Positions 48,673-64,000 of a stretch of 64,000 nt of DNA are shown one piece after another. The position numbers were made by a program, and so were the translations under genes. The notes under the pieces are model-generated. The model was given only the letters and a program-made list of their open reading frames with translations. It had not been told where the DNA came from and did no database searches. This stretch comes from Diplonema japonicum (lineage: Eukaryota; Protista; Euglenozoa: Diplonemea): NCBI GenBank assembly GCA_964019335.1, contig OZ025670.1, positions 634,221 to 698,220 of the forward strand, given 5' to 3'. Position 1 is the stretch's first letter. Every line of letters begins with the position of its first letter.

Positions 48673-48734
48673 GCCATTTTCATGGTAAAGGTTAACTTCT
48701 ATTCATGTGCAGATTTTTTTTGTCGGGTTTGCAA

Positions 48735-49296
48735 AAAATAGCTATTTATTGCCAACAAATGTCATTATTTTACTCGAGTTCCCGAATTTTTTGCACGAGG
48801 GCCCTGCAATTTTTCAAGGGGTTGGGTGCATCTTTTCCGCGGTGAGACCCATTTTTTCACTCTGAAGGGCCATTATTTAACTGCAAAATCTCATTACTGT
48901 AAAACAAAAATCCACCGGAAGATAAAATATCCGGACCGCCGAAACATCCGGTGATTTTTTCTTCCGGACATTTTTTGGGGCACTTTTCAAGGGGGTACCA
49001 AGCCTGTCCACGCTAGTAGTCCTACGCACTATCCCCTCCCCCTGTCTACTGCATGTTTCCCTGGAAAAACTTATGTTTCTGTTGCAGGAGTCTTAAAATT
49101 GGCAAAAATATGACTAAAAAAAAAAAGGGGTGAAGAACGTCCTACCTGTCCGTCTTGTTTGCTGCCTTCGCAGCCTTGGCAGTGTGCCTGGCCTCGGCCT
49201 CATAATGGCGATTTCGCGTTAAATAATGGTCATTTCACGTTAAATGATGAGGCCCCTAGTGAGTGAAGAAAATGACGAAGAGTGAAATTAAAAAAA
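48735..49296 (-). mobile_element. Rearranged inverted copy of the HINE/Helentron-like element at 51189-51757
   Basis: 48735-48895 and 49201-49296 are reverse complements of parts of 51185-51760. The middle is deleted and about 300 bp of unrelated sequence is inserted. Confidence 0.7.
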
Positions 49297-49309: not shown

Positions 49310-49391
49310 CGCAGTCGGCAGGACTTGAACCTGCGCGGGCAGAGCCCAATGGATTTCTAGTCCACCTCCTTAACCGCTTGGATACGACTGC
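49310..49391 (-). tRNA. tRNA-Ser (anticodon AGA)
   Basis: 82 nt. Acceptor stem GCAGTCG/CGACTGC plus G, anticodon loop CT-AGA-AA, long variable arm, GGTTCAAGTCC, downstream T7 terminator. Confidence 0.95.
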
Positions 49392-49402
49392 TACGCGGAT
49401 AT

Positions 49403-50612
49403 ATTTTTTTTTCAAAATACCAATAGGTGCCACCATGGGGGAGCAACACCTGGGAAGGGGAAAGGTGAAGGGAAGCATGGAAATATTACAGGGAGGGCGA
49501 AGACCAGTTCTTCTGCAATCAGATGGAGCTGTGGACTCCGCCAACCCGTGCACCTGTTTGGAACAGCCGAAGAGGGCTGAATTACTTTAATTCCAAGCCG
49601 CGTAGACCTACGTGACTCGGACGGGGACCTTGACCCCAGTTCGTAGTTTTTCTCAACTGGGACCTCTGGTGACCGGAACTGGCCCCGGTCGCCCCCTCGA
49701 GAGGGATTTGCTCCATTGAGCGAAACATGAAAGGGTGAGAGTAAAATCTCTCAAAATCAAAAGGGGAAGCGAGCGTGCGTGTGCGCATGGGGATGATAGG
49801 GGAAGTATTTGCTCTCCCCGCTGCACTCCGGCAGGCGGGGGGAGGGGATGGCCGTACCACACTCGTTCGTGCGAAGATGAGAGGACTCATCAGGGCAACT
49901 TCAGAGTAGATCGGGCCATCCGTTTTGACTACAATGTCAGGGCACACGGCAACAAGAGGATGTTAATTTTAAAAATTTAAAAATTTAAAAGTGGGGACGG
50001 GCATACTGGTAAGAGAAAGGCCAGACGCCGGATGATGATGATAACATAAGAAAAGAGAAGGGAAGGGAACGTAAGCACTAAAAGAATTGAAAAGTTGATC
50101 TCACCATACTCACTTCAGCGCAACACGGGGGCCGCAGGGCCGGCGTCAAGGGAGACAGCCGGCGGGGGCGGGATGAACGAAGGGGCAGCGGTACCTGCTG
50201 TTGCCGCAGACGGCGACGTGAAGACCCCGGATCTGGCCCAGTCAAGCAAGCCAGAGTCGGCGATAAGGGTGAATACCTGCGTCACGCGTTTTGACAAGCA
50301 CTCCACCAGCGAGGGGCGTCCATTGGGAGCGTCGAGCGAACCCCGTCCAACCACAGCGCACCCCCCAACAACGTGCTCCCTGGACATCTGTGCTCCACAC
50401 GCTGGACAGCTGAGCTCAGCCTTCTTCCTGTTCGGTCCAGCCGCCTGCAGGAAGCCGAAGAAGAGAGCGGAGTGCCCTACCCTCAGCCGCGAGATGACCG
50501 TCTCCGCTAGCCTGGGGAGGGACTGGGGGAAGCACGCCGCTCGGAGCCCCGTGGCCCTCGCGTACCTCGGGGCCACCTCCCCGACAATGACCGCAGACCT
50601 CTGCTGAATCTG
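49403..50612 (-). mobile_element. Element A: 5'-truncated Ingi/I-group-like non-LTR 3' end (ORF remnant 50115-50612, ~700-bp 3' UTR, A tail)
   Basis: ISRLRVGH..CPAC..EH...C knuckle. TSD gcggatat at 49395-49402 and 50613-50620. Confidence 0.8.
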
Positions 50613-50624
50613 GCGGATATTTTT

Positions 50625-52295
50625 AATAATAATAATAATAATAATAAATGAACCACTGACGTGCGAAGCAAAGGCTGGGGGGGGGGGGGGGGGGACAGAA
50701 CAGGTGGACCAAGGGTCTCCCTGTATCTAACGAAAGGGGGAAAGGAATGAGATAACCTTGAAACTTTCGCTAAACTATCCATACGTACCGAGGACGGAGG
50801 TGGGGCCGGTTCGTGGGCTCCAGTGTTCGCGACTTCGCCCACCTCCGTGACCCCGGCAGCTCTCCAGCCCGCTTCCCTTGCCAGCACCCTTCGGGCGAAC
50901 CTCCGGGTTTTTGAGGAGTGGGGTACCTCGTCCGTGCTCGCCCTCACGAGCGGCACACTGGCACGGAGGCATCCCCTTCAGCCAGCTTTGTTGGGCGGCG
51001 GAGCCTTAGAAAATTCAAAACAATGGAAAATGATACGGGGGGATGTGTGAAGGGGCGGGGAAAGGTGAAGACAGAAGTTGGGGTGCACGACAGGGTAATA
51101 ATGGGAAACACAGGGGGAGGGGGAGAGGGTTCACTAGTACTTTTTGGTTCACTTTTTTCTGTTCCTTTTTTTTTTTTTTTTTTTTTTTATTTCACTCTTC
51201 GTCATTTTCTTCACTCACTAGGGGCCTCATTATTTAACGCGAAATGGCCATTATTTAACGCGAAACGGCCATTATTTAACGCGAAATCGCCATTATTTAA
51301 CTAGTTAAATAATGAGATTTTGCAGTTAAATAATGGCCCTTCAGAGTGAAAAAATGGGTCTTGTCGTGGAAAAAAATGCACCCAACCCCTTGAAAAATTT
51401 TTTTGGGGTGGGGGTATTTTGACTATTTTTGGCCATCTGAGGCCATTCCAGCCCTTAAAAGTGGGAATAAGTGCCTTACTTCCCCTTTAAATGCCACGGC
51501 GAAATAGCTACCCTGTATTACCTTAGGAAAATCCCCAAAAAGCTGACCTGCGTGAAAAAAAACAGCAGTGAAAGCAGTGAAGAGTGAGTGACTCAAATGA
51601 CGAAGAGTGAAATAAAACGACTTACTTGCCGCCAAATGAGCCATTATTTAACACTCGTTACCCGTTTTTTTGCACTCGGGCCCTGCGGGCCCTCGTGCAA
51701 AAAATTCGGGAACTCGAGTTAAATAATGACTCATTATTTGTTGGCAATAAATAGTTATTTTTTTTTTTTTTTTTTTTTTCTACGTCCTGCGATTGCGGTC
51801 AGCGGCTCGGCGGTCGTGAGAGTCTCAGATGAGGTCCATCCTCTTCAGGTAGGAGGCGGTTTCACTCACCCTCATTGTGAGCATCTCCTTCGTGGTCGTG
51901 GGGATGTCATCCCCGAAGATCTCTTCGCGGACCTTGTCTCCAGCTGGGCACCCGATCAGCAGATGGTGTCTGTCCTGGATCGAATGGCACGAGAGGCAAC
52001 GTATGTCACTCTGGACGGGTTTCGACAGGAAGCCGCAAGTCAGGTGGCTCCTGCCCGTTCGCAGTCTCGTTATCTGTACCTCATCGTGTCTGCAGGACAG
52101 CTCCTTCAAAGGGAGGTACCTCGCGCCGATCTCCTCTCGGTACTTCTTATCCCGACCAGTCTTCTCCCACGAGGCTGCCCAGTCGCGGTTCACCGACCTC
52201 TTGATGAGGCTCTTTGTGGTCATCAGGTCCGTCGGGCCGTCCGGTGTCGACTCCTTTGCGGCGCGTTTGGCGTGTCGGTCGGCTTGCTCGTTACC
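50625..52295 (-). mobile_element. Element D': truncated, near-identical copy of the element D 3' end with a (TTA)n tail, interrupted by the HINE-like insertion
   Basis: 51780-52295 is the reverse complement of 54742-55257, and 50625-51165 is the reverse complement of 55289-55820, with few substitutions. Confidence 0.9.
51189..51757 (+). mobile_element. Non-autonomous Helentron/HINE-like rolling-circle element inserted in a T tract
   Basis: 23-bp asymmetric subterminal inverted repeats (51185-51207 and 51595-51617), about four 21-bp tandem repeats, a ~100-bp 3' stem-loop (51636-51734), T runs on both sides and no coding capacity. Confidence 0.6.
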
Positions 52296-52755
52296 AGGTC
52301 AGCCTTCGACGGATGATGGACCACATCGGTTGGAAGCCGTCGTCTATCATCCGACGCTCTGACACGGCGTTCCAGGGCACGAGGCAGCTCGTGTTCTTCA
52401 TCGTCGCCGACGCCCCGCCCCCCAAGGCCAGGACATGGCTCTTCGGCTCTCTCCTCGTTCGACTGCACGACGCGGAAGCCACCCGAGCGTCACACTCCCG
52501 CCCCGCACCAAGAAGGCTCCACCCGCGGCTCAAACGCCGGTTGCGGCAACCACAGCCCAGACGCCGGCCCCTGACCCCACGGCGCAGTCCACAGGGCTGC
52601 CGAGCACCAATCCGTGGTCATCACCACCGAGCTCGGTAGCCCCTCCGCCACTTGGCACTGTGACTCCGGTCCCCTCCGCGGCTTCCCTGGCCACCACACC
52701 TCCCCATGACCGGAACCTGAGGCTCCTCACGCTGATCCAGTCGCATCACTTGGCC
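52290..52755 (+). pseudogene. Degenerate fragment of the element F ORF1
   Basis: Aligns to about 61890-62455 with frameshifts and deletions. Confidence 0.85.
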
Positions 52756-52801
52756 CTATCCCTCTCCCAACCCCTTCCTTCCTCTCACGAGTTGGCCCAA
52801 A

Positions 52802-55257
52802 CAGACGGCATCTACAACGAAATGCTGAAGTACCTGGGACCGGTGGCCAGGGAAGTTCAACTCCTCCTCTACAACTCATCCCTCCAGACCGGTGTCGTCC
52901 CTGCCGAATGGAGGCGGTCTTCCATCATCCCCCTCATGAAAAAGGGCAAAGACCAATCCGAACCCGCCTCGTACAGGCCGATCGCGCTGACGTCAAACAT
53001 CGTGAAGACGTTGGAGCGAATAGTCAAGGACAGGATGTGCTTCCTGCAGGACACAGGACGGGTAAGGCAATTGCACACATCGCAGGCGGGTTTCCGGAAA
53101 GGGAGGTCCACGGAGGAAAACGTGCTGTACGCCGCCTCAAAGCTCAAAAGTGTCAGACTGAGCCAAGGTCTGGGGGGTCTCCTGCTGTTCGACTTCAAAG
53201 GAGCCTTCGACACAGTCTGGCACAAGGGAGTGATCGCAAAGCTGATAGGCGACGGATACCCTCCCAAGCTCGTGAAATGGATCACCTCTTTCCTCGACCA
53301 ACGTAAAGCCTCCGTCTGTGTGAACGGGGAACACGGCTGCGTGAAGACAATGACAGGGGGCGTACCCCAAGGCACCATCCTGGCCCCGCAGCTCTTTTCC
53401 ATCTACGTCAACGACCTGGCCAGGTTGTACAGGAAGGCTGGAATCGACGCGGTAGTGTACGCAGACGACATAGCGATAGTGCTGGAGGCGGGGAGTCCTG
53501 CCGAGCTGAACAAGAAGGTGCAACGCGCGGTGAGCCTCACGGAGCGATGGTGCGAGACGTTCTCGATGAAACTGTCCCAGGAAAAGACAGAGTTCATGCC
53601 GGTAGAGGGACAGTTCTGGAACTCGCACGACAGTCTCGCAAACCTCATCAACGCCCGCTTCCCCTCGAGTGGGGCGAAAGTCAAGGTGGTACGCGAGGCT
53701 AAATATCTTGGCGTCACCTTCGACGAAAGCATGAACTTCCACGAGCATGTGCAGAAGGTGAAGGGAAAGATCAACAGCCGTCTTCGCCTGCTGCGCAAAC
53801 TCGCCGGAACAAGGTGGGGCTGCCGCAAGCACACCCTAAGGACGCTGTACCTGACGTACGTCCAACCGGTTCTGCGCTACTGTCTCGGTGCTTACGGCAA
53901 CTTCGTGGGACATGCTGCTCTGGCCGAGTTCGACTCGCTACAATACACAGCAGCGAGGTTGATAACGGGATGCTTCGACAAGACTTCCGCGACGGTGACC
54001 AGGTCAGAGGCGGGCATCTGGGAGATTGAATCCTTGCTGGAACACGACACCCTGGTGCTCTACGAGAAGGCACAGCGTCAACCGGGGACAACAGCGGAGA
54101 AGGCAACAAAGATATCCGGGGGTCAGATGTGGTACGGGAAAAGCTGGCGAAACACCGCGCTCGACTTGGCGAAGAGTCACGGGATGCCGGAACGCGAAGA
54201 CCTACCACACCACTCAGTCACTCAGAGCGCAGACCTGCAGCTCCCTCCATGGGTCCAACCCAAAGTCCTGTTCCACCCCGACCTAGTCCGCAAGGTACAC
54301 AAGAAGGACGAAAAAAGTCTCAAACTCCGAGCGGCCTTCGAATCGATCAGGAGGCACGGCATCCCAGATGTGATCGTCTACACCGACGGGTCAGTCACCG
54401 GACACAGGAACGGCGGTTCGGCAGCTGTGATAAGGATCGGGTCTGACACACCGAAGCAGGCACGCAAGAGCGGAGGAGCAGTGACTTCGGCCTACCGATG
54501 CGAACTGAAAGCGCTGAACCTGGGGCTGCAATTGACACTGTACCATACCCGGAGACAAGGTGTGACGACCGGAGTAGTGCTGCTGTGCTCGGACTCCCAG
54601 TCGGTGATCAGAAGACTGATGCAGGGCCACAGAGAGATGAGGCAGAAGGAGGAACTGCTGGCTTGGAAATGGCTGGACGCGCTTGACCGCCAAGGCCTCT
54701 CCACCATCATCCAGTACGTTCCCGGACACTGCGGCCTACCAGGTAACGAGCAAGCCGACCGACACGCCAAACGCGCCGCAAAGGAGTCGACACCGGACGG
54801 ACCGACGGACCTGATGACCACAAAGAGCCTCATCAAGAGGTCGGTGAACCGCGACTGGGCAGCCTCGTGGGAGAAGACGGGTCGGGACAAGAAGTACCGA
54901 GAGGAGATCGGCGCGAGGTACCTCCCCTTGAAGGAACTGTCCTGCAGACACGATGAGGTACAGATAACGAGACTGCGAACGGGCAGGAGCCACCTGACTT
55001 GCGGTTTCCTGTCGAAACCCGTCCAGAATGACATACGTTGCCTCTCGTGCCATTCGATCCAGGACAGACACCATGTGCTGATCGGGTGCCCAGCTGGAGA
55101 CAAGGTCCGCGAAGAGATCTTCGGGGATGACATCCCCACGACCACGAAGGAGATGCTCACAATGAGGGTGAGTGAAACCGCCTCCTACCTGAAGAGGATG
55201 GACCTCATCTGAGACTCTCACGACCGCCGAGCCGCTGACCGCAATCGCAGGACGTAG

Positions 55258-55292
<35 letters not shown>

Positions 55293-55820
55293 CAGAAAAA
55301 AGTGAACCAAAAAGTACTAGTGAACCCTCTCCCCCTCCCCCTGTGTTTCCCATTATTACCCTGTCGTGCACCCCAACTTCTGTCTTCACCTTTCCCCGCC
55401 CCTTCACACATCCCCCCGTATCATTTCCCTTTGTTTTGAATTTTCTAAGGCTCCGCCGCCCAACAAAGCTGGCTGAAGGGGATGCCTCCGTGCCAGTGTG
55501 CCGCTCGTGAGGGCGAGCACGGACGAGGTACCCCACTCCTCAAAAACCCGGAGGTTCGCCCGAAGGGTGCTGGCTTGGGAAGCGGGCTGGAGAGCTGCCG
55601 GGGTCACGGAGGTGGGCGAAGTCGCGAACACTGGAGCCCACGAACCGGCCCCACCTCCGTCCTCGGTACGTATGGATAGTTTAGCGGAAGTTTCAAGGTT
55701 ATCACATTCCTTTCCCCCTTTCGTTAGATACAGGGAGACCCTTGGTCCACCTGTTCTGTCCCCCCCCCCCCCCCAGCCTTTGCTTCGCACGTCAGTGGTT
55801 CATTTATTATTATTATTATT
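52802..55820 (+). mobile_element. Element D: 5'-truncated Ingi/I-group-like non-LTR retrotransposon (RT, RNase H, zinc knuckle; stop at 55212; 3' UTR with internal A tract; (TTA)n tail)
   Basis: DGIYNEML, YRPIALTS, QAGFRKGRST, GVPQG, YADD, KYLGV, VYTDGS, GHCGLPGNEQAD, RLRTG. TSD (tt)ggcccaaa at 52792-52801 and 55819-55828. Confidence 0.93.
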
Positions 55821-55842
55821 GGCCCAAAATCGAATGCGAACC

Positions 55843-55915
55843 GGCGAGTTCGCACTAGCGGTTAGGACCTCCACTAACCGTTAGTTAGGTTCCTGGTTCG
55901 ATTCCGCGTCAGCGC
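55843..55915 (+). promoter_or_regulatory. tRNA-derived internal Pol III promoter (A/B box) at the head of element E
   Basis: D-loop-like CTAGCGGTTAGGA (55855-55867) and B box GGTTCGATTCC (55895-55905) at tRNA spacing. The cloverleaf stems are degenerate. Confidence 0.65.
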
Positions 55916-56213
55916 TAGTATTAGTATATCATCCTCTACCTGTCGGGTTGGCTGACCGGACGAAAAGTTCCACCATCTGGAACTTGAACCTGGACCGCCG
56001 GTGGAGGGATCCCCAAACCCAACAACTCCACCAAGTTGGAAAGTGGTGGCCACTTGCATAAAACCAACAAACTAACCTGTAGTTCCTGATACTCACTGGC
56101 GAACAGCACCAAAGGGCGGGGATGTCAAGAGACCAGTGCCAGTACCAGTGAGTCGTAATGTAAAGGTAAAGGGACAAACGGGGGAGGCCTCCGGGCCTCT
56201 TTTAAAAAAAAAA

Positions 56214-56338
56214 GGGGTCCGATTACACACACACATGAACATGTAGACGAACGCGGTGTGTGTGGTGGCTGCCCACCTCCACGGTGGTGGTCCCTGGGCA
56301 ACGCGCAGGTGGTGAAGGTTGCGCGGCTGAGAGGCAGC
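56214..56338 (+). ncRNA. HDV-like self-cleaving ribozyme
   Basis: P1 GGGGUCC/GGUCCCU, P2 GCUGCCC/G(A)GGCAGC, P3 ACC/GGU, L3 UCCACGGU, GG-GCAA, P4 CGCGCA/UGCGCG, J4/2 GCUGA. Confidence 0.8.
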
Positions 56339-57554
56339 TCGAGAGGAGGAGCAGGGGAACGGTGTTGCGTTGGGCGGCCGAGGGCCGGAGCCGGAGCGCC
56401 GTGTTGGATGGCATCCCCTGGGGAAGCCTCCTGCACGCCAGAACGAGGACCGGATCCGGAGACGCCGTTTGATGGTTTTCCTGGGGAAGCTGACCTGAAC
56501 GCCCGAGCGAAGTGGCCTGAGCGTGGGGAGCACTGTTTGCCGACAGAAAACAAGATTAATGCAAAATGTCCAGAGTGCGCAACAGTGTTTTCCACGTGAG
56601 GGGTTCGATTTCAAAGTGGGTCCTCCAGCCACCAGAGTTGTAGGCTGGGTTCCCGCGGAGAGAGAATCGGAGCGGAGGCGTCAAGTACGGTGGACCACCT
56701 CAAGGGATGTAAGTCCATTGTGTGACACAGTCTCTCGGTGAAGGTCCGACTTCTGGTGGGTAGGCAGGCAGAACCGCATAGGGGTGTAAGGAACACCATT
56801 GTGTGACCTGTCGCACACGGGGAAAGCCCAAGGCCGGTGGGTTATCTGCCAACGTGTCCCCCTCCTCTACTTCGCCTCTCACAACCTCTTCCTCCCCGCT
56901 GACGATTGACTCCACAGCACTCGCCGGCCTACCTGGTGCGCCCGCGTCATTACGCGATAGGGAGTCTCGTTGGAAAAACATCTTTCGCAGCTGAGAAGGG
57001 GGGTTTTTTTTTTTTTTAGAAATAGTAACCAGTAATTCTTTTTTCCCCCTCCCCCATTGGTTTCCCTTTCTTTTTATTTTCCCTACCAGGCTCCTTTTCT
57101 AGTTATGCATTCCTCCCTTCTTTGTGGAAGTTGAGTTCTGAACTTGACTTTTCCTTTTACATTTCCTTTTCAAATTTATATTTTAGGCTCCCACAGCCCA
57201 ACAAAACCAGCAGATGGTGGGGTCCCTGTGGCTGGATAAATCAAAATTAGGGATCTCATCGCCGTCCTTTAATATTTGGGGTTGTCTTTATTTGGTGACA
57301 GCCGAAGCCTTCGAGGCCCAAGAGCTGCGTGGCGGGGGAATGGGGAAAAAATAAGAAAGGTGGATGTCGGGGGCCCAGGAAAATATACAAGAGGTCGAGC
57401 AAACGAGCAAGAGGTCCCCCCCGATATGGCTCAGTAAGAGAGACTGTTTTAACCTTCCCTTCCCAATTTTTATGGTTTCAACTTTCTCCGCCCCCCATCC
57501 CCCCCCGCCTGGTAGTGGAATAATTATTATTATTATTATTGGCCCAAAATCGTC

Positions 57555-57626
57555 GGCTCGGTGGTCTAGTGGCATGATTCTCGCTTAGGGTGCGAGAGGT
57601 CCCGGGTTCAATTCCCGGCCGAGCCC
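57555..57626 (+). tRNA. tRNA-Pro (anticodon AGG)
   Basis: 72 nt. Acceptor stem GGCTCGG/CCGAGCC, anticodon arm CTCGC-TTAGGGT-GCGAG, GGTTCAATTCC, T6 terminator. Confidence 0.97.
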
Positions 57627-57705
57627 TTTTTTGTGCTCAAATCTGAAGTCTAGTCCTTACCCCCCCCCCGTTCCTCCCCGTGGCTATCACCACAGCTTAA
57701 AGTGT

Positions 57706-60420
57706 GTGGCTACTTGACTCCCCGACAACGATGGTAGAGGGACTTCACCCCGCCCAGGCTGGCTTCAGGAAAGGGAGGTCCACCGAGGAGCAGGTTGCCG
57801 CCATCGTGCAGCATGTGACGATAAAAAGGAACGCCGAAGTTAAGGAGGCATGCCTCACCATACTCTTTGACTTCTCAAAGGCGTTCGACAGGGTCAACCA
57901 CGAGGCACTCATTCAGAAGATGTCTCAGAAGCGCTTCCCTACGGCCTACACCAGGTGGGTTTCCTCCTTCCTAACGTCCAGAACAGCGAGGATAGTCGTG
58001 GAGGGTGTCAAGGGGACCCCTTACAAAATCAAGAGTGGCGTGCCTCAAGGTTCTGTACTCGGTCCAGTGCTGTTCACCATCTTCGTGGACGACCTAGCGA
58101 GGGAACTTGAGGGTCTGGCTGGGCTCTCCACGATCTACGCGGACGACGTCGCGGTAGTAGTCTCTGCCACAACAAGGACTGAGCTCGAGGCCAGGGCCAC
58201 GGCGGTAGTGGGTGCAGTCGAAGACTGGTGTACACGATGGGGGATGCAGTTGAGCAGGGAGAAGACGCTGTACGTCCCCACCCCCAAATGCGAACCGTAC
58301 GACTTCCACGTCTACTACCCCTCGACCGGGGCGACGCATCCGGGCTTCGAATTCCAGCCGCTGGAGCTCAAGGGCCGACTCATCGCCGGGGGACCTACTC
58401 ACCTGATCGGGAGGAGGCTCCTGTCCGTTAACCGCACGGCCACGACACGACGCGACGTCTCTGCACTCGTCTCCAAAGGGCTGGTGTATGAATTCTCCAC
58501 GGCCGTCCCCGTTGCGAGGCGTGATAGGGCCAAGTATCTAGGGGTCATCCTTGACGCTGGCTTGTCTTTCGGTGCCCATGCCCGCGACATCATCGAGAGA
58601 TACGACAAACGAATTCGCATACTGCGGCTCCTCTCCGGCTCGTCCTGGGGCAGTTCAGCAGCATCACTCAGGTCCTTGTACCTGGCCTACGTCCTACCGG
58701 TGTTCACCTACTCGATTGGCATCTTCTTCGCACTGATGTCTGCTCAAGACAGGAAGGCACTGTGCATGAGGCACGATGAGGCAGCCCGACGAATCACGGG
58801 GTGCGTCAAGAACACCTCCACCTCGGCTGTACTGTGTGAGGCCCGCTTGCGCCCGCTCGACCTGATGGCCGACGCTGCTTCTGCCATTCTACTGCAGAGG
58901 GCACTGAGGTGGGTGGGAACCCCGGTGAACAGGGTGGTCAGGGGTGCAGCTACCGCAGGATGGGCCTTGGGAGCGCTGAAGGCGACGAGGAGTTCTGGGC
59001 TGAGTGCGGTTGCTTCCCTACCGCTAGGGCCTGATACGAGAGCCCCCCCCTGGGCGGAAGGCATCCACGTCGATCCCTACGCCACCGACACCAGGAGGAC
59101 ACTCCCCGACGATGTGAGGGCGGCAGCGGCTGCGGAAAAGCTGGACGAGATCCCAAGCGGCGCTCTGGTAGTGTACACGGACGGCTCGGTGATAAGGGGG
59201 AGAGGGGGAGCTGGGGTTGCCCTCAGAGTCCCCGACATGGACCTCACCCTTACCACCTCTCACGGGGCCGGCATGGTCTCCACACCCATGTGCGCCGAGG
59301 GCACCGCTATCCTGATGGGGTTGAAGGAGGCTGCGGAGGTGTACAAAACGGTCGTGAACCTGAGGGGCCGCCCTCTCTACCTGCTGACCGACTCACAGAC
59401 GATGCTGCGGAGGCTCGCTGGAGGCCCCGGACAGCAGAGGGAGTCCACGGACAGACGGATCTGGGATGCCGCTTCCTGGCTCAGGGCCAAACGCTCTGGT
59501 GATGTGCACTTCTGGTACATCCCCTCCCACTGCGGTGTGACGGGGAACGAGCTCGCCGACGGAGCGGCCAGGGACGGGCTGTCGAAGTCGCCTTGCGGGG
59601 TTAGCTACCGCTCCAGCAAGGCGGCCATAAAAGCGTGGCTGAGAGGAAGGTCGCGTGCGAGATACAACAGCGACTCCCCCGGCCACCACCGCCTCGTCAC
59701 CGGTGGCGAATGTCTCTCTCTCCCACCACTCAGTAGGAGGGATGAGGTCCTGATCATTCGGCTCCGGACCGGACACACGCCTTTGAATAGGGGGTACCTC
59801 CAGCTCAAGGGACCCCTGAGGGCTGAGGGGAGTCATCACCTCACCTGCCCCGCCTGCAACGTTCAATCACCGCTCGACGCTGATCACCTGCTGAGGGGCT
59901 GTCATTCTCTGGCTCCCACAGCTAAGTCCTTCTACGACACTGGGCTGCCGCTCCGCGCGCTGCTTTCCAAGCACTCCGCCGAGGTCTGCGCCTTCATCGA
60001 GGCCTCCGGGCTCTTATCATGGTCTGAGTGTGGGATCTTCCCCCCGGCCGACGCAGCACAAGGGTGATCGTGAGCCCATTATAGACCCCCCCCCTACCCC
60101 TTTGTCCCCCCCCCCCCCCCCCCCCCACACACACACACTCACACGCAAATGGGCCAAGAAACAACCTCCCGGGAGGCAGCCACAGGGAAGGCCGGGAGGG
60201 CGCAGGGCGCAGCAAGAGAACGCCCCTGCGTTCAGCCTCGAGGGGACCGCCCCGAATGTAATCAGCCAGGTCGGCTGTCCCAGGAAGGGGGAACGGAGCA
60301 CCGAAGGGAAGGTTCAGCCCACGTGGTGGCCCTCTCGGTTACTCCAGACAAAAGACTGGACACACCCCACACCCCTCCCCCCACCCCCAGTTTCCCCCCA
60401 GTGGTTATTATTGCAAAAAA
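57706..60420 (+). mobile_element. Element G: 5'-truncated Ingi/I-group-like non-LTR retrotransposon (RT, RNase H, CCHC; stop at 60067)
   Basis: QAGFRKGRST, DFSKAFD, GVPQGSVLGP, YADD, VYTDGS, SHCGVTGNELAD, RLRTGH, CPAC..H...C. A tail. TSD aaagtgt at 57699-57705 and 60421-60427. Confidence 0.92.
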
Positions 60421-60444
60421 AAAGTGTATCCCCCGCCGCTGATT

Positions 60445-60480
<36 letters not shown>

Positions 60481-60488
60481 AAAGAATC

Positions 60489-62714
60489 ATGTCGACCTCC
60501 AACAAGAAGAAAAAGAGGCCCGCTCACCACAAGTCCAGGACGGAAGAAATCCTGGAGAAAGCCCGCGGTGAGCGGGTAAAGGACAACGCCGCCGCCAGGG
60601 CGAAGCGCACGCGCGAGGAGGTGGAGAGGAAGCGCGCAGAGGGGGTCACGCCGGTGGTGACACCCTCCCCCGGGCAAGGGAAGAAGGCGGCCAGAAGGGC
60701 CAGACAGAAGGCAGCAGCTGCTGACGCTGCCACCGCCGCCGCTTCGGGCTCCGACGACTCTGTCGTCTTAATTAGCGAGTCGCCGGGCGTTGTCACCTCG
60801 TTCACGGTCGACACGCCAGAGGTCAGGAGGGCGAGGATGAGGACTGCTGCCGCCGACACCACTGCCACTGCTCCTGCACCTGCTGCTGCCAACACCACTG
60901 CTCCTGCACCTGCTGCCGACTCCCCTGCTCCTGCACCTGCTGCTGCCGACACCACTGCTCCTGCGCCTGCTGCTGCCGACTCCCCTGCTCCTGCGCCTGC
61001 TCCAGCCTCTACTGCTGCCGTGTGGTCTGCTGCCGTCCTCACTGCCGCTGCCTGCGACACCGCCCTCCCCATGTCGGACTCTGACACCGACGAGAAGGAC
61101 ACGGCCCCCGCTCCCGCACCGGCCCCGGAGCCTCACTGGGATCTGGTCCCCGACACGTGGGACGCCCCCATCTACACCAACACTGCTCCCCCTGAGGAGG
61201 TGCCCCGCGCCGTCGTCGCTCTCGACGACCTCCAGCAGGTGGACGCGATTCGCACTGCGAGGCCCACGGCCTCCCTGACCTTCGTCCTCTTGACGGAGGT
61301 TGCCGGTTCGACCACCCCATGCACCGTCATCGTACTCGCCGGCCAGCGTGTCGTGCACAAGGCCGTGCACACCTTCTCGGTCGGGTCGAACCCCCCCTCC
61401 TACACCCCACTCGCTTCTTTTGATGGCGGCTCTGAGGTAGTGTACGTCAGCGTGAAAGCTGACAGCGTGAACGCGGCGAAGGCCAGGGTTCGGGACCTCG
61501 TCGCGACCCAGGGCGTGGCGGTGGAGGAGCAGGCGATCTTCCGCCCGAAGAAGATCGACGGGAACGAGCCGCGGGCGCGGCACTGGAGCCACGAGGTGGG
61601 CCTGCGGCTCCCGGCGGCATCCGTCCATGCGGTACTCCGGGCCTCGGGCGACGGCTGCATGGTCAGGACGACCGAGCGGCGCGGGGGGTACACCTACGTG
61701 CCCATCGTAGCGGAGGGGAGGGCGGAGGCCTTCCAGCTGGCGAAGGCACTGGGCGGGTTGTCCCTGGGGGTGGCCCATCGCAAGGGTTGGACCGTGAGGT
61801 GCCTGCCGGAGACGGAGCAGCGTCTGAGGGAGGCCCTCGCCAAGCAGAGGACAAAGCGTCGGTACCTGCTCACCGGAGCCCCGCTGTCTGTTACCAGGGC
61901 AGCCTTCGACGGGATGATGGACCACATCGGTTGGAAGCCGTCGTCCATCATCCGACGCTCTGACACGGCGTTCCAGGGCACGAGGCAACTCGTGTTCTTC
62001 ATCGTCGCCGACGCCCCGCCCCCCAAGGCCAGGACATGGCTCTTCGGCTCTCGTCTCGTTCGACTGCACGACGCGGAAGACCACCCGAGCGTCACGCTCC
62101 CGCCCCGCACCAACAAGAAGGCCCCACCCGCGGCTCGGACGCCGGTTGCGGCAACCACGGCCCAGACGCCGACGCCGGCCCCTGGCCCCACGGTGCAGTC
62201 CACAGGGCTGCCGAGCACCAATCCGTGGTCATCTCCACCGAGCTCGGTTGCCCCTCCGCCACTTGGCACTGTGACTCCGGTCTCCTCTGCGGCTTCCCCG
62301 ACCACGACACCTCCCCGTGACTCCCAGAAGAAGAATCCCGCACCGGAACCAGAGGTCCCGGCGCTCCTCGCGCTGATCCAGTCGATGCAGGCGACCATCG
62401 ACGGTCTGCAGGCGACGGTCCGCGACCTCCAGGAGAGGATGGCAGCGTCACTTGGCGCGCCGGCGTCATCTGCAGACGGAGCTGGGCGGACGGCAGTGGC
62501 TGGGAAGGGCAAGGGCGGCAAGGCTGGGTCCAAGGCAGGGACGAAGGGGCACCAGGCGCAGGGCGTAAGCACGCCAGGCCCCTACCCGACATCGACGGAG
62601 CAAGGGGGCGGAAGGGGACGCGCCCAGTCGCTGGCTGGCGACTCTGCTTCCCCCAACGGGGCCGGCCGTGGACGGGCAGCCTCTGTGGGCCCGGCCCCCG
62701 CCCCTGCCAATTGA
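60489..62714 (+). CDS. Element F ORF1 (741 aa; basic N-terminus, Ala/Pro/Thr repeats, coiled coil)
   Basis: ATG follows a (GA)n tract. The ORF directly precedes the APE ORF, and a second decayed copy lies at 52290. Confidence 0.75.
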   Translation: MSTSNKKKKRPAHHKSRTEEILEKARGERVKDNAAARAKRTREEVERKRAEGVTPVVTPSPGQGKKAARRARQKAAAADAATAAASGSDDSVVLISESPGVVTSFTVDTPEVRRARMRTAAADTTATAPAPAAANTTAPAPAADSPAPAPAAADTTAPAPAAADSPAPAPAPASTAAVWSAAVLTAAACDTALPMSDSDTDEKDTAPAPAPAPEPHWDLVPDTWDAPIYTNTAPPEEVPRAVVALDDLQQVDAIRTARPTASLTFVLLTEVAGSTTPCTVIVLAGQRVVHKAVHTFSVGSNPPSYTPLASFDGGSEVVYVSVKADSVNAAKARVRDLVATQGVAVEEQAIFRPKKIDGNEPRARHWSHEVGLRLPAASVHAVLRASGDGCMVRTTERRGGYTYVPIVAEGRAEAFQLAKALGGLSLGVAHRKGWTVRCLPETEQRLREALAKQRTKRRYLLTGAPLSVTRAAFDGMMDHIGWKPSSIIRRSDTAFQGTRQLVFFIVADAPPPKARTWLFGSRLVRLHDAEDHPSVTLPPRTNKKAPPAARTPVAATTAQTPTPAPGPTVQSTGLPSTNPWSSPPSSVAPPPLGTVTPVSSAASPTTTPPRDSQKKNPAPEPEVPALLALIQSMQATIDGLQATVRDLQERMAASLGAPASSADGAGRTAVAGKGKGGKAGSKAGTKGHQAQGVSTPGPYPTSTEQGGGRGRAQSLAGDSASPNGAGRGRAASVGPAPAPAN
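60845..61010 (+). repeat. Imperfect 27-36-bp coding tandem repeat ((A)ADT/SPAPAPA)
   Basis: gccgac(accact/tcccct)gctcctgc(a/g)cctgct is repeated about five times. Confidence 0.8.
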
Positions 62715-62855
62715 AGGGGTCCCGCTGAGCAGGGGGGGCGTCAGATCGACGACCACGCCCCCTCTCCTGGTCTCCCGCGCATACAGCCGAGGAGACACCT
62801 TCCACATCACTTGTACGACGTCCTCCCTTCCTTGATCCCTTCCTTACTTGAACGG

Positions 62856-64000
62856 ATGTCGGCCAGGGACCTGCTGGGGCTGCTTGGGCTGGTTGAGACG
62901 AACCCCGGTCCACCTAAGAAGCTCCCACCCCCGAAGCCGAAGGGACTCAGGGTCCTGTCCTGGAACTGCAACGGTCTTGCCGCCAAGTGGTCAACCGTGT
63001 CCTACCACGCTGTCCTACTGACGCTGGATATCATTATGATCCAGGAGACACACCTTAGGGAGGGGCATGAGACACCATACCTGCCTGGATACACGTCCTA
63101 CAGGAGGGACCGCACAACACCGGTGACGGACGGCTCTGCGACGAGAGGCGGTGGTGTCATCACGTATGTCCGTGACTGCCTTGCCTCGGAGGAAGCTCCT
63201 TTCGTACTCCCTGAAGGTGACAGTGTCACTGAGCGATTAGACGTGAGGATCTCCTGTGTGAAGCGCGTCCCGGTCACCCTCTCCAACGTGTACCTCACGC
63301 CTGTGAGTATAAGCAGAGGAACAAGGGACCCCGAGTACCTACGGCCGGGCAGCCTACCTGTGGGGAAGAACACGATCGTTGCTGGCGACTTCAACGCACA
63401 CCACAGCTCTTGGGATGCCAAGGTGACAACGCCCAACGAAAGGGGGAACGTGGTCAGGGACTGGCTTGACACCCACGGCTACACCGTCTACAACAACCGA
63501 GACGAGCCGACGCGGGACTCACCGCCACGCGTTCTGGACCTGGTGGTGGGACGTTGTGCGGAACTGGAGCCGAGGACGTTGGGGACGTGGGGCTCTGATC
63601 ACAGCCCGGTTTCCTTCCGCCTGCCGCTTGAGGACGCCTACTGCTCGGAGCGACCCTGCCCTACCTGGAACTTCAAAAAGGCCAGGTGGGACGACTTCAC
63701 CGCGGCCGCCGCTGCCCTTCTGACCAAGATCGACACGAAGGCCCACATTGACTCCTTCACGAAGGAGGTTACAGAGGCTCTTCTGCATGCAGCTGACGAC
63801 CACATTCCGCTTTGCGGAGTGCGACGAGGCCCGACCCCCTGGTGGACGGCCGAACTCGAAGACGCCTTCGAAGAACGGAACGCCCTGCGGGATCGCTTCC
63901 TCAAGTCGGCTGAGACTGAGGACGACAGCGTGGCGGCGGTCTACAAGGCGAAGGTCAAGGAGGTAAACCAACTCATGACCGAGTCGAAGCGCGCGGCCTG
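62856..64000 (+). CDS. Element F ORF2 N-terminus: 2A-like motif and AP endonuclease; continues past the window end
   Basis: Absent from the ORF track because it has no stop in the window. Translates to LVETNPGP, SWNCNG, IQETH, GGGV, GDFNAHH, GSDH and WNFKKARWDDF. Confidence 0.92.
   Translation, partial: MSARDLLGLLGLVETNPGPPKKLPPPKPKGLRVLSWNCNGLAAKWSTVSYHAVLLTLDIIMIQETHLREGHETPYLPGYTSYRRDRTTPVTDGSATRGGGVITYVRDCLASEEAPFVLPEGDSVTERLDVRISCVKRVPVTLSNVYLTPVSISRGTRDPEYLRPGSLPVGKNTIVAGDFNAHHSSWDAKVTTPNERGNVVRDWLDTHGYTVYNNRDEPTRDSPPRVLDLVVGRCAELEPRTLGTWGSDHSPVSFRLPLEDAYCSERPCPTWNFKKARWDDFTAAAAALLTKIDTKAHIDSFTKEVTEALLHAADDHIPLCGVRRGPTPWWTAELEDAFEERNALRDRFLKSAETEDDSVAAVYKAKVKEVNQLMTESKRAA

What the first reader, a model, noticed from the sequence alone, without database searches (positions are those of the whole stretch)
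55833..57540. Chimeric SINE-like element: Pol III cassette fused to a ribozyme-headed deleted LINE
One 12-bp TSD encloses two parts. The first is a ~370-nt highly structured unit with tRNA-like A/B boxes, hairpins (tgcgaac/gttcgca, aagttcca/tggaactt, actcactgg/ccagtgagt, gaggcc/ggcctc) and a TTTT followed by A10. The second is a 1.3-kb unit with the HDV ribozyme, a decayed CxxC finger and a (TTA)n tail. Inference: either template switching joined a SINE RNA to a non-autonomous element, or read-through past a weak TTTT plus a weakened ribozyme let the element capture its own Pol III promoter. Each insertion would also add a B box beside a tRNA gene.
Basis: partly seen in the sequence, partly recalled or inferred. 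Interest (0 to 1): 0.7.

Follow-up and report, generated by a model that had tools for sequence, protein, structure and literature searches.

The report
SINE fused to ribozyme-headed retroposon
In a marine diplonemid flagellate, a 1.7-kb insertion just in front of a tRNA gene joins a tRNA-like, likely SINE-type unit directly to the first base of a predicted self-cutting RNA that heads a separate jumping element, likely because the copying enzyme jumped from one RNA to the other, an accident already known from flies and fungi.

Summary
The anatomy is real. In a Diplonema-like host, one 12-13 bp duplication brackets 55833-57540, 14 nt upstream of tRNA-Pro. The 5' unit has a tRNA-Glu-like head with a perfect B box, a piece shared with a probable LINE 3' end, a hairpin, T4 and A10. 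The 1.3-kb unit starts exactly at G1 of a complete HDV-like fold, supported by compensatory changes in a 92%-identical relative. That relative is not preceded by A10, and within runs the 1.3-kb unit is about 3 and 45 times deeper than the 5' unit, so it is an independent non-coding retroposon. The zinc finger is unproven. Promoter capture is unlikely: 13 T-runs, one of 14 T, lie before the tail. Best reading (0.45): a template jump from the ribozyme-cut 5' end onto the SINE RNA, as in Drosophila R2-U12 chimeras. Rivals: A10 is a target duplication from another tRNA stack and the pair moved together (0.25); sequential insertion with a duplication shrunk to GG (0.2). No genome was held, so fused copies were not counted.

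The parts
55821..55832 (+). Left copy of the target-site duplication (12 bp; 13 with T55820)
   Evidence: the 13-mer occurs twice in the window
55833..55854 (+). 5' junction with a 7-bp inverted repeat (55835-55841 / 55848-55854); part of the RNA or a snap-back product of insertion, undecided
   Evidence: centroid; snap-back junctions described in PMC11371274; inference
55843..55920 (+). tRNA-Glu-like head: A-box-like 55850-55861, B box 55895-55905; does not fold as a tRNA
   Evidence: 117 of 120 matches to the head's two motifs are tRNA-Glu; spacer 26 against 25; ARAGORN negative down to -ps80
55921..56006 (+). Body of the 5' unit with hairpins; homolog in run X13
   Evidence: table 8 (X13 record 18)
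56007..56045 (+). 39-nt segment also found in an X13 contig right after a stop codon and shortly before an A11 run, likely a LINE 3' untranslated end
   Evidence: table 7; C-terminal motif comparison; inference
56072..56199 (+). Third module of the 5' unit: long stem and terminal GC hairpin
   Evidence: z -1.77; X13 record 18 joins 56048 to 56084 (table 5)
56200..56203 (+). T4, first T-run of the unit, predicted Pol III terminator
56204..56213 (+). A10 at the junction: oligo(A) tail of the 5' RNA, or a target duplication from another locus
   Evidence: same length in X2 records 25 and 26 (no gaps); X2 loose end of ten A behind a tail (table 7)
56214..56338 (+). HDV-like ribozyme fold, G1 = 56214, U-U mismatch at P1 pair 5, hairpin in J1/2
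   Evidence: compensatory changes in X13 (tables 3, 7)
56339..57003 (+). Non-coding or decayed body with weak 63/64-nt and 81-nt internal repeats and two CxxC motifs; origin not identified
   Evidence: protein searches blank or spurious
57004..57017 (+). T14, predicted block to Pol III read-through
   Evidence: four T fewer in X2 and X11 (table 4)
57018..57523 (+). 3' module: pyrimidine-rich start, ends in poly(C) and AGTGG like the 3' ends of two neighbouring LINEs
   Evidence: similarity to the neighbour's module marginal (score 32, shuffle maximum 31)
57524..57540 (+). (TTA)n tail
57541..57552 (+). Right copy of the target-site duplication
57555..57626 (+). tRNA-Pro(AGG), the targeted gene; mature 5' end 14 nt after the tail
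52363..55820 (+). Upstream neighbour in the stack: RT-RNase H LINE fragment, A31, then a 530-nt module with its own (TTA)n tail

Best explanation
The stretch is a two-part insertion 14 nt upstream of tRNA-Pro, in which a tRNA-Glu-headed, likely SINE-type unit is joined through A10 to the first base of a predicted HDV-like ribozyme that heads a separate non-coding retroposon, likely by one template jump during reverse transcription. Steps. Shown: the anatomy, the single flanking duplication, the fusion at G1, the existence of the 1.3-kb unit without the head in a relative. Inferred: (1) the 1.3-kb unit is co-transcribed by Pol II and cut out at G1 by its ribozyme; (2) an APE-RT-RNase H LINE protein of the tRNA-targeting kind found in the same stack primes on its (UUA)n tail; (3) at the cut 5' end the enzyme jumped to the oligo(A) 3' end of a Pol III SINE RNA and copied it in full; (4) one duplication closed the whole. 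The product would be a dead end as a chimera: Pol III from the head would stop at T4 or at latest T14, and a Pol II co-transcript would be cut at G1, releasing only the 1.3-kb unit.
For: One duplication around both halves and none between them, while the two neighbouring junctions that can be checked keep an 11-13 bp repeat (55820 and the tRNA-Ser stack). The join is exactly at G1. The X13 homolog of the 1.3-kb unit (57 differences in 734 nt) begins within about 5 nt of G1 and is preceded by C, not an A-run (tables 7, 8). Contig depth within a run: 350.6-402.3 for the 1.3-kb unit against 114.6 for the 5' unit in X2, 250.9 against 5.5 in X13 (the tool warns depth is no copy number). The junction is not peculiar to the window's assembly: X2 record 26 carries 28 letters of the 5' unit and A10 into the ribozyme. 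13 T-runs rule against Pol III read-through. Precedent: R2 jumps from its ribozyme-defined 5' end to U12 snRNA and tRNA (PMC3414825 section 8); 'extra template' junctions (PMC11371274 passages); MINE chimeras (PMC2104539 abstract).
Against: The target duplication begins with GG and the ribozyme with GGGG, so a sequential insertion with a 2-bp duplication gives the same letters; X2 record 25 ends exactly after A10-GG. An X2 contig has exactly ten A behind a tail placed at 57540, so A10 may be target DNA rather than a tail (table 7). X2's single contig of the 5' unit runs through A10-GG at depth 114.6, well above the 11.8-17.4 of that run's weakest contigs, which may mean several fused copies rather than one event. 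X2 record 26 has 28 letters on the 5' side, under the tool's 31-letter bar for bridging. No stand-alone copy of the 5' unit with its own duplication was seen, no parent LINE was found, and no RNA evidence was obtained.
Confidence: 0.45

Rival explanations
1. Co-mobilised pair. The 5' unit ends at T4. At another tRNA gene whose upstream target is A10, the 1.3-kb unit landed behind an earlier SINE copy, so A10 is that locus's duplication. The SINE-A10-element pair was then copied as one RNA (5' transduction, helped by incomplete ribozyme cutting) into the tRNA-Pro site, and may be spreading as a composite.
For: X2 loose end behind 57540 is ten A plus three letters (13 in all), within the 11-16 nt seen between tails and tRNA-like starts; at tRNA-Pro and tRNA-Ser the repeat stops 2-3 nt short of the tRNA. 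Targets here are A-rich and the tails of targeting elements T-rich. A10 is invariant between window and X2. P1 has a U-U mismatch where X13 has G-C. D. ambigua R2-U12 is a multi-copy precedent.
Against: The RNA would have to start at the SINE head and reach the tail: Pol III cannot be expected to pass T10-14, and a Pol II co-transcript has no known reason to end within 10 nt of the head. The A10 match rests on one 13-letter loose end among the 24 shown of 58. The U-U mismatch is not listed as differing in X2's main contig, so it may be family-wide.
Confidence: 0.25
2. Two separate insertions at this site. The SINE, with an A10 tail, landed first and made the 12-bp duplication; the 1.3-kb unit then landed at the same nick, and its own duplication was reduced to the GG that target and ribozyme share.
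For: Elements stack one after another before tRNA genes in this window. The target starts GG and the ribozyme GGGG. X2 record 25 ends precisely at the second G (56215), where an unfused allele would branch off (table 8).
Against: The other two checkable junctions keep near-full repeats. No branch contig was laid at 56215 (depth arithmetic), and a break without a visible partner also occurs at 56345-56374, so the break alone says little.
Confidence: 0.2
3. Promoter capture: Pol III starts at the head, reads through T4 and an inactive ribozyme, and makes a full-length RNA that retrotransposes as a giant SINE.
For: Perfect B box, weak T4, U-U mismatch in P1; Kojima's model of SINE birth by adding a small-RNA head to a bipartite LINE (PMC5786205).
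Against: 13 T-runs including T14, T6 and two T5 lie between head and tail; the two tRNA genes here are followed by T6 and T7. 1.7 kb is far beyond the SINEs tabulated in PMC5786205 (161-610 nt).
Confidence: 0.03
4. On the identity of the 5' unit only: it is a retrocopy of a host Pol III non-coding RNA (vault-like or unknown), not a SINE.
For: A and B boxes with a terminal T4 fit any type II Pol III gene; vault RNAs conserve little beyond these boxes (PMC7058938 passages). Template jumps elsewhere usually pick abundant host RNAs.
Against: No Rfam family fits at E<=10 beyond five chance-level hits, none of them Vault, SRP or Y RNA. The X13 homolog differs by 11 substitutions, 7 gap letters and a 35-nt deletion in 167 nt, no less than the mobile half. 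The unit contains a probable LINE 3'-end segment.
Confidence: 0.12

Closest known systems
R2 elements with snU12 or tRNA 5' extensions, and R2 SIDEs, of Drosophila (PMC3414825; passages and section 8 read)
   Same: A small RNA is fused directly upstream of an HDV-like ribozyme that marks the element's 5' end; SIDEs are non-coding, ribozyme-headed and not Pol III transcribed; the U12 form poses the same puzzle of a head in front of a cutting site.
   Different: Here the partner is a 370-nt tRNA-headed composite with A10, the element is non-coding, the target is the position before a tRNA gene rather than a 28S sequence, and the neighbouring LINEs are APE-RT-RNase H, not R2.
RIME, NARTc and SIDER of the L1Tc/ingi clade in trypanosomatids (PMC4035085, PMC3185411, PMC12278014; passages)
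   Same: Euglenozoan, non-autonomous, HDV-like ribozyme cutting at +1 of the element, short target duplication, APE-RT-RNase H relatives.
   Different: Tail is (TTA)n, not poly(A); 1.3 kb against about 0.6 kb; targeted to tRNA starts; homology to Pr77 was not tested; none of the passages read mentions a Pol III head.
SINEs built from a tRNA head plus a bipartite RTE or Vingi LINE (Bov-tA, SINE2-1_EC, SINE2-1_ACar; PMC5786205, parts 1-4 of 5 read)
   Same: tRNA-derived head in front of the two ends of a LINE derivative; template switch proposed as the origin.
   Different: Those are 161-610 nt Pol III units, and the paper notes that a ribozyme behind the head would cut the head off; here the whole ribozyme, an A10 and 13 T-runs are retained, so the whole is not a working SINE.
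MINE chimeras of Magnaporthe grisea (PMC2104539; abstract only)
   Same: Copies of two RNAs directly fused and enclosed by one short direct repeat, attributed to template jumps.
   Different: MINE fuse a non-coding RNA to MGL LINE or Mg-SINE parts; the abstract mentions no ribozyme or tRNA targeting.
tRNA-targeting retrotransposons of dictyostelids (DGLT-A 13-33 bp, Dp_NLTR-A 2-6 bp, TRE5 about 50 bp upstream; PMC5006619 passages)
   Same: Insertion at a fixed distance upstream of different tRNA genes; Dp_NLTR-A also has RT plus RNase H.
   Different: Distance here 11-16 nt for non-LTR elements; different host supergroup; mechanism untested.

Membership tests
HDV-like ribozymes | Nested double pseudoknot P1, P1.1, P2, P3, P4 with conserved L3 and catalytic C in J4/2 | tested here: met
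   6/7, 2/2, 6/6, 3/3, 5/5 pairs; one site in both strands of the window, 0 of 300 shuffles (descriptor written after seeing the sequence)
HDV-like ribozymes | Pairing kept through sequence change | tested here: met
   in X13, P4 A-U to G-C; P1 C-G to U-A, U-U to G-C, G-U to G-C (5' side read from a loose end aligned by eye); one G-U next to P4 lost; one relative only
HDV-like ribozymes | Rfam gathering score | tested here: not met
   22.5 bits against 44 (RF02682), 19.8 against 50 (RF00094); the models miss the long J1/2
HDV-like ribozymes | Self-cleavage 5' of G1 | not testable with these tools
   needs in vitro transcription
Bipartite non-autonomous LINE (SIDE) for 56214-57540 | Ribozyme at first base, simple-repeat tail, no long ORF, exists as its own repeat | tested here: met
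   (homolog in X13 with another 5' neighbour; pieces in 4 of 4 runs laid)
Bipartite non-autonomous LINE (SIDE) for 56214-57540 | 5' and 3' ends match an autonomous LINE | tested here: inconclusive
   no parent found: tblastn of 28 LINE proteins gave no convincing hit; 3' module similarity to the neighbour LINE marginal; shared AGTGG-(TTA)n end with two LINEs
L1Tc/ingi clade | Poly(A) tail | tested here: not met
   tail is (TTA)n; clade description
L1Tc/ingi clade | Pr77 hallmark homology and RT phylogeny of the parent | not tested
   no Pr77 sequence came from a call; resemblance of the core is recalled only; parent unknown
SINE2 (tRNA-derived SINE) for 55843-56213 | tRNA-derived head with A and B boxes | tested here: met
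   the search pattern came from the head itself, and the hits are metagenome tRNAs not checked for being eukaryotic
SINE2 (tRNA-derived SINE) for 55843-56213 | Part shared with a LINE 3' end | tested here: inconclusive
   39-nt match in one X13 contig after a stop codon and before A11; LINE identity inferred from six residues
SINE2 (tRNA-derived SINE) for 55843-56213 | Dispersed copies with their own target duplications | tested here: inconclusive
   single in the window; X2 depth 114.6, between about 2 and 10 times the possible single-copy level; no flanks of other copies seen
SINE2 (tRNA-derived SINE) for 55843-56213 | Pol III transcript | not testable with these tools
   contigs cannot show starts, ends or strand
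SINE2 for the whole 1.7 kb | Pol III can transcribe from head to tail (no strong internal terminator) | tested here: not met
   13 T-runs, T14 at 57004
Template-jump chimera (R2-U12, MINE type) | Direct fusion of two RNA copies inside one target duplication, at the first RNA's 5' end | tested here: met
Template-jump chimera (R2-U12, MINE type) | Formed in one insertion event, not by stacking or co-transcription | tested here: inconclusive
   GG overlap and A10 target alternative not excluded
Vault RNA | Match to the curated family model | tested here: not met
   no Vault hit among 5 matches at E<=10; the trypanosome vault RNA paper was not held

The most novel reading that the evidence does not exclude
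The fused unit is not a one-off but a spreading composite: a tRNA-Glu-headed SINE, a kind my searches did not find reported in Euglenozoa, welded by an invariant A10 to a ribozyme-headed retroposon whose P1 mismatch lets uncut RNA be copied whole into new tRNA-upstream sites. That would be the predicted but unseen intermediate in SINE birth, caught before the ribozyme and the internal terminators are lost.
Probability: 0.2. Interest if true: 0.65.

Novelty: new variant of a known kind. Interest (0 to 1): 0.4.

Why it matters
If the junction is a template jump, it extends a known by-product of LINE copying to a euglenozoan and shows a SINE-type RNA as the acceptor at a ribozyme-made end. The components may matter more than the fusion: a tRNA-headed SINE-like family and an HDV-headed non-coding retroposon in diplonemids, neither found in my paper searches (listings only; for the D. 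papillatum genome paper). If fused copies prove to be many, the locus tests directly the model that SINEs arise when a small-RNA head is added to a bipartite LINE, and the point in PMC5786205 that a ribozyme behind the head should cut it off.

Tried and rejected
No whole genome is held, so the two halves could not be searched genome-wide. No RNA holder listed; X13 is only guessed to be RNA and is not used as evidence of expression. Parts without cover, not used as evidence: the 5' unit in X11 and X12, and 55822-55840 in all four runs laid; X2's contig of the 5' unit stops near 55841 with two letters unplaced, which may be a branch or an indel. Extra X2 depth over 56202-56277 (about 13) is unexplained. 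Zinc finger: Pfam blank for three frames, word search blank, the one phmmer hit is an off-frame repeat in a GPCR, tblastn with 28 LINE proteins unconvincing; against this blank, 6 of 9 listed X13 differences in 56408-56596 fall on third positions, 4 of 9 silent (only listed rows), a weak hint of a former ORF. Rfam: no family for the 5' unit. Hammerhead, twister and a second HDV fold inside the 5' unit were looked for by eye and rejected (cores incomplete; motifs recalled); the descriptor found no second HDV site. The metagenome scan returned tRNA genes, no copy of either unit (it stopped after 2 of 64 parts). Viral contigs: 0 matches to the ribozyme core. Earlier notes: none near, none by sequence, none for the full word set. 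D. papillatum supplements: 0 hits for six terms in 7 files held; I did not check that the section on repeats is among them. PMC6816085 not held.

Full report
Host and setting. The window is from a diplonemid: its SNF2 protein's best hit is a Diplonema ambulator protein at 68%, then unnamed ENA proteins and D. papillatum at 45%. No genome is held. Two tRNA genes, Ser (49310-49391, minus) and Pro (57555-57626, plus), face away from each other, and the DNA between their 5' ends is a pile of retroelements: an RT-RNase H LINE fragment at 52363-55212 and inverted copies of its 3' parts. Further LINE ORFs follow tRNA-Pro; their best full-length relatives are D. ambulator and D. japonicum APE-RT-RNase H proteins.

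Observation. The 13-mer at 55820-55832 recurs once, at 57540-57552. Both copies follow a (TTA)n run belonging to different elements, so the duplication is 12 or 13 bp, and the insertion lies 14 nt before mature tRNA-Pro. Folding of the 5' unit is moderately better than chance on the plus strand (z -2.43, 1 of 100 shuffles) and not on the minus strand (z -0.76).

The 5' unit. A scan of metagenomes with the head's two box motifs gave 120 matches in 119 loci; ARAGORN called 117 tRNA-Glu, 1 tRNA-His and left 2 uncalled. The spacer is 25 nt in 120 of 120 and 26 nt in the head. The pattern came from the head, so this names the nearest tRNA type and does not measure significance; the perfect B box alone appears in 1 of 2000 shuffles. 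The head no longer folds as a tRNA, and Rfam has no family for the unit. The lack of T4 before 56200 is not informative (660 of 1000 shuffles). I laid 4 of the 23 listed runs. In X13, a run of another organism code, a 167-nt contig matches 55942-56147 with 11 substitutions, 7 gap letters and a 35-nt deletion. A second X13 contig matches only 56007-56045; it is preceded by an open frame ending in TGA whose last residues resemble the W-x-x-C/S/T-G-x-F/Y motif near the end of four Diplonema LINE proteins, and followed after 11 nt by A11. I infer that the unit is a tRNA head plus a LINE 3'-end piece plus a further module, the usual build of a SINE. Independent copies with their own duplications were not seen, so membership is likely, not shown.

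The 1.3-kb unit. From G56214 the sequence forms every helix of an HDV-like ribozyme, with one U-U mismatch at P1 pair 5. A descriptor written after seeing the sequence finds this one site in both strands of the window and none in 300 shuffles; Rfam scores stay under threshold. X13 holds a 1286-nt homolog, 57 differences in the first 734 nt. Its listed changes turn P4 A-U into G-C, and, with the 5' loose end aligned by eye, give a perfect P1 (C-G to U-A, U-U to G-C, G-U to G-C); one G-U beside P4 is lost. This is one relative, but it is good support for a functional fold. That contig starts about 5 nt before G1 and shows C, not an A-run, in front of the G-run. Depth within runs is 350.6-402.3 against 114.6 for the 5' unit in X2 and 250.9 against 5.5 in X13. 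The tool warns that depth is not copy number; the single-copy level in X2 could be about 12-17 or about 55, so the 5' unit may have 2 to 10 copies. Either way most copies of the 1.3-kb unit appear not to carry the head. The zinc-finger claim failed: two CxxC motifs, matched by 108 of 1000 shuffles, and blank or spurious protein searches. No parent LINE was identified; the unit shares its poly(C)-AGTGG-(TTA)n end with two neighbouring LINEs.

Targeting. Besides tRNA-Pro (14 nt) and tRNA-Ser (repeat ending 3 nt before the gene), loose ends behind (TTA)n tails in X2, X11 and X13 run 11-16 nt into what read as tRNA 5' ends (judged by eye, not by a tRNA finder). Targets differ in sequence, so placement is by position. 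Three earlier notes of this scan say the same for other pieces of this genome; they are not independent support. Dictyostelid elements do this at 2-6, 13-33 and about 50 bp (PMC5006619 passages).

The junction. X2 record 26 (56186-56374) carries the terminal hairpin, T4 and A10 into the ribozyme without gaps, overlapping record 25 by 30 nt; it has 28 letters on the 5' side, under the tool's bar of 31. The fusion therefore exists in raw data of the same organism code. Pol III read-through cannot explain a full-length RNA: 13 T-runs, among them T14 (T10 in X2), lie before the tail. Three histories remain. (A) Template jump from the cut 5' end to an oligo(A)-ended SINE RNA: one event, explains the missing middle duplication and the precise ends, with precedent in Drosophila R2 fused to U12 or tRNA (PMC3414825, passages and section 8), in engineered R2 insertions (PMC11371274 passages) and in MINE (PMC2104539 abstract). 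(B) Two insertions, the second leaving only GG of its duplication; X2 record 25 ends right after that GG, but no branch contig was laid and another break without a partner exists. (C) A10 is the duplication of another tRNA locus, suggested by one X2 loose end of ten A plus three letters behind a tail, and the pair moved as one RNA; this needs an RNA that starts at the head and passes both ribozyme and T14. I give A 0.45, C 0.25, B 0.2, promoter capture 0.03.

Comparison. It works like an R2 SIDE or a trypanosomatid RIME/NARTc with an extra template on its 5' end (passages). It is not filed in the L1Tc/ingi clade: the tail is (TTA)n, and Pr77 homology was not tested. The whole is not a SINE by the Pol III criterion. 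Kojima's survey (PMC5786205, parts 1-4 of 5) lists SINEs made of a tRNA head and a bipartite LINE, proposes a template switch as origin, and notes that a ribozyme behind the head would truncate it; this locus looks like the raw first step of that path, most likely stalled. Novelty searches: (listings only) showed no title on diplonemid or euglenozoan SINEs or on this chimera; the D. papillatum genome paper's passages mention LINE, SLACS and rRNA fragments, not these, and 7 supplement files gave no hit. The library lacks most subscription papers and Repbase.

Verdict. Real, well formed, and a new variant of a known kind of retro-chimera in a little-studied host. The surprising version, a spreading composite, is not excluded (0.2) and can be settled by one search of the full assembly. 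Interest 0.4.

Noticed in passing
window 55258-55820 and 50631-51780 (minus): The 530-nt (TTA)-tailed module left of the finding follows the same LINE 3' end and a long A-run in both window copies, and X2 and X11 contigs of it start with 22-24 A. It is probably a second 3' end welded behind that LINE's poly(A), so an 'A-run then (TTA)-tailed module' join occurs twice in this stack.
   Followed up: partly
window 51185-51754 and 48733-49296: A small palindromic element with 21-bp tandem repeats, a hairpin near one end and sub-terminal inverted repeats sits inside an A-run; related pieces lie just past tRNA-Ser. It recalls Helentron-associated elements (label recalled, not tested).
   Followed up: no
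window 49410-50620 (minus): A 5'-truncated LINE 3' fragment lies directly before tRNA-Ser between near-identical 11-nt repeats; its C-terminus resembles that of D. japonicum protein P0122.
   Followed up: partly
window 52290-52710 and 61890-62321: A 93%-identical ORF1 fragment of the LINE at 60420-64000 sits at the point where the two inverted arms of the RT-RNase H LINE meet.
   Followed up: no
window 57640-60410: A 5'-truncated RT-RNase H LINE starts just after tRNA-Pro's terminator and ends in AGTGG-TTATTATT, then an A-rich spacer and another LINE's start, suggesting a further stack towards a tRNA beyond the window.
   Followed up: partly
window 55443-55470, 56007-56033, 57180-57212: A GG(A/C)TCC...CCCAACAA motif recurs in the 5' unit and in both 3' modules; in the two modules it follows a pyrimidine tract ending in AG, which might be a trans-splice acceptor (inference). 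No common fold found.
   Followed up: partly
run X11, contig ending at window 56456: A 694-nt contig at depth 44.3 leaves the 1.3-kb unit at 56456 into T-rich sequence, possibly a shorter sister derivative with the same 5' part.
   Followed up: no
   Followed up: partly
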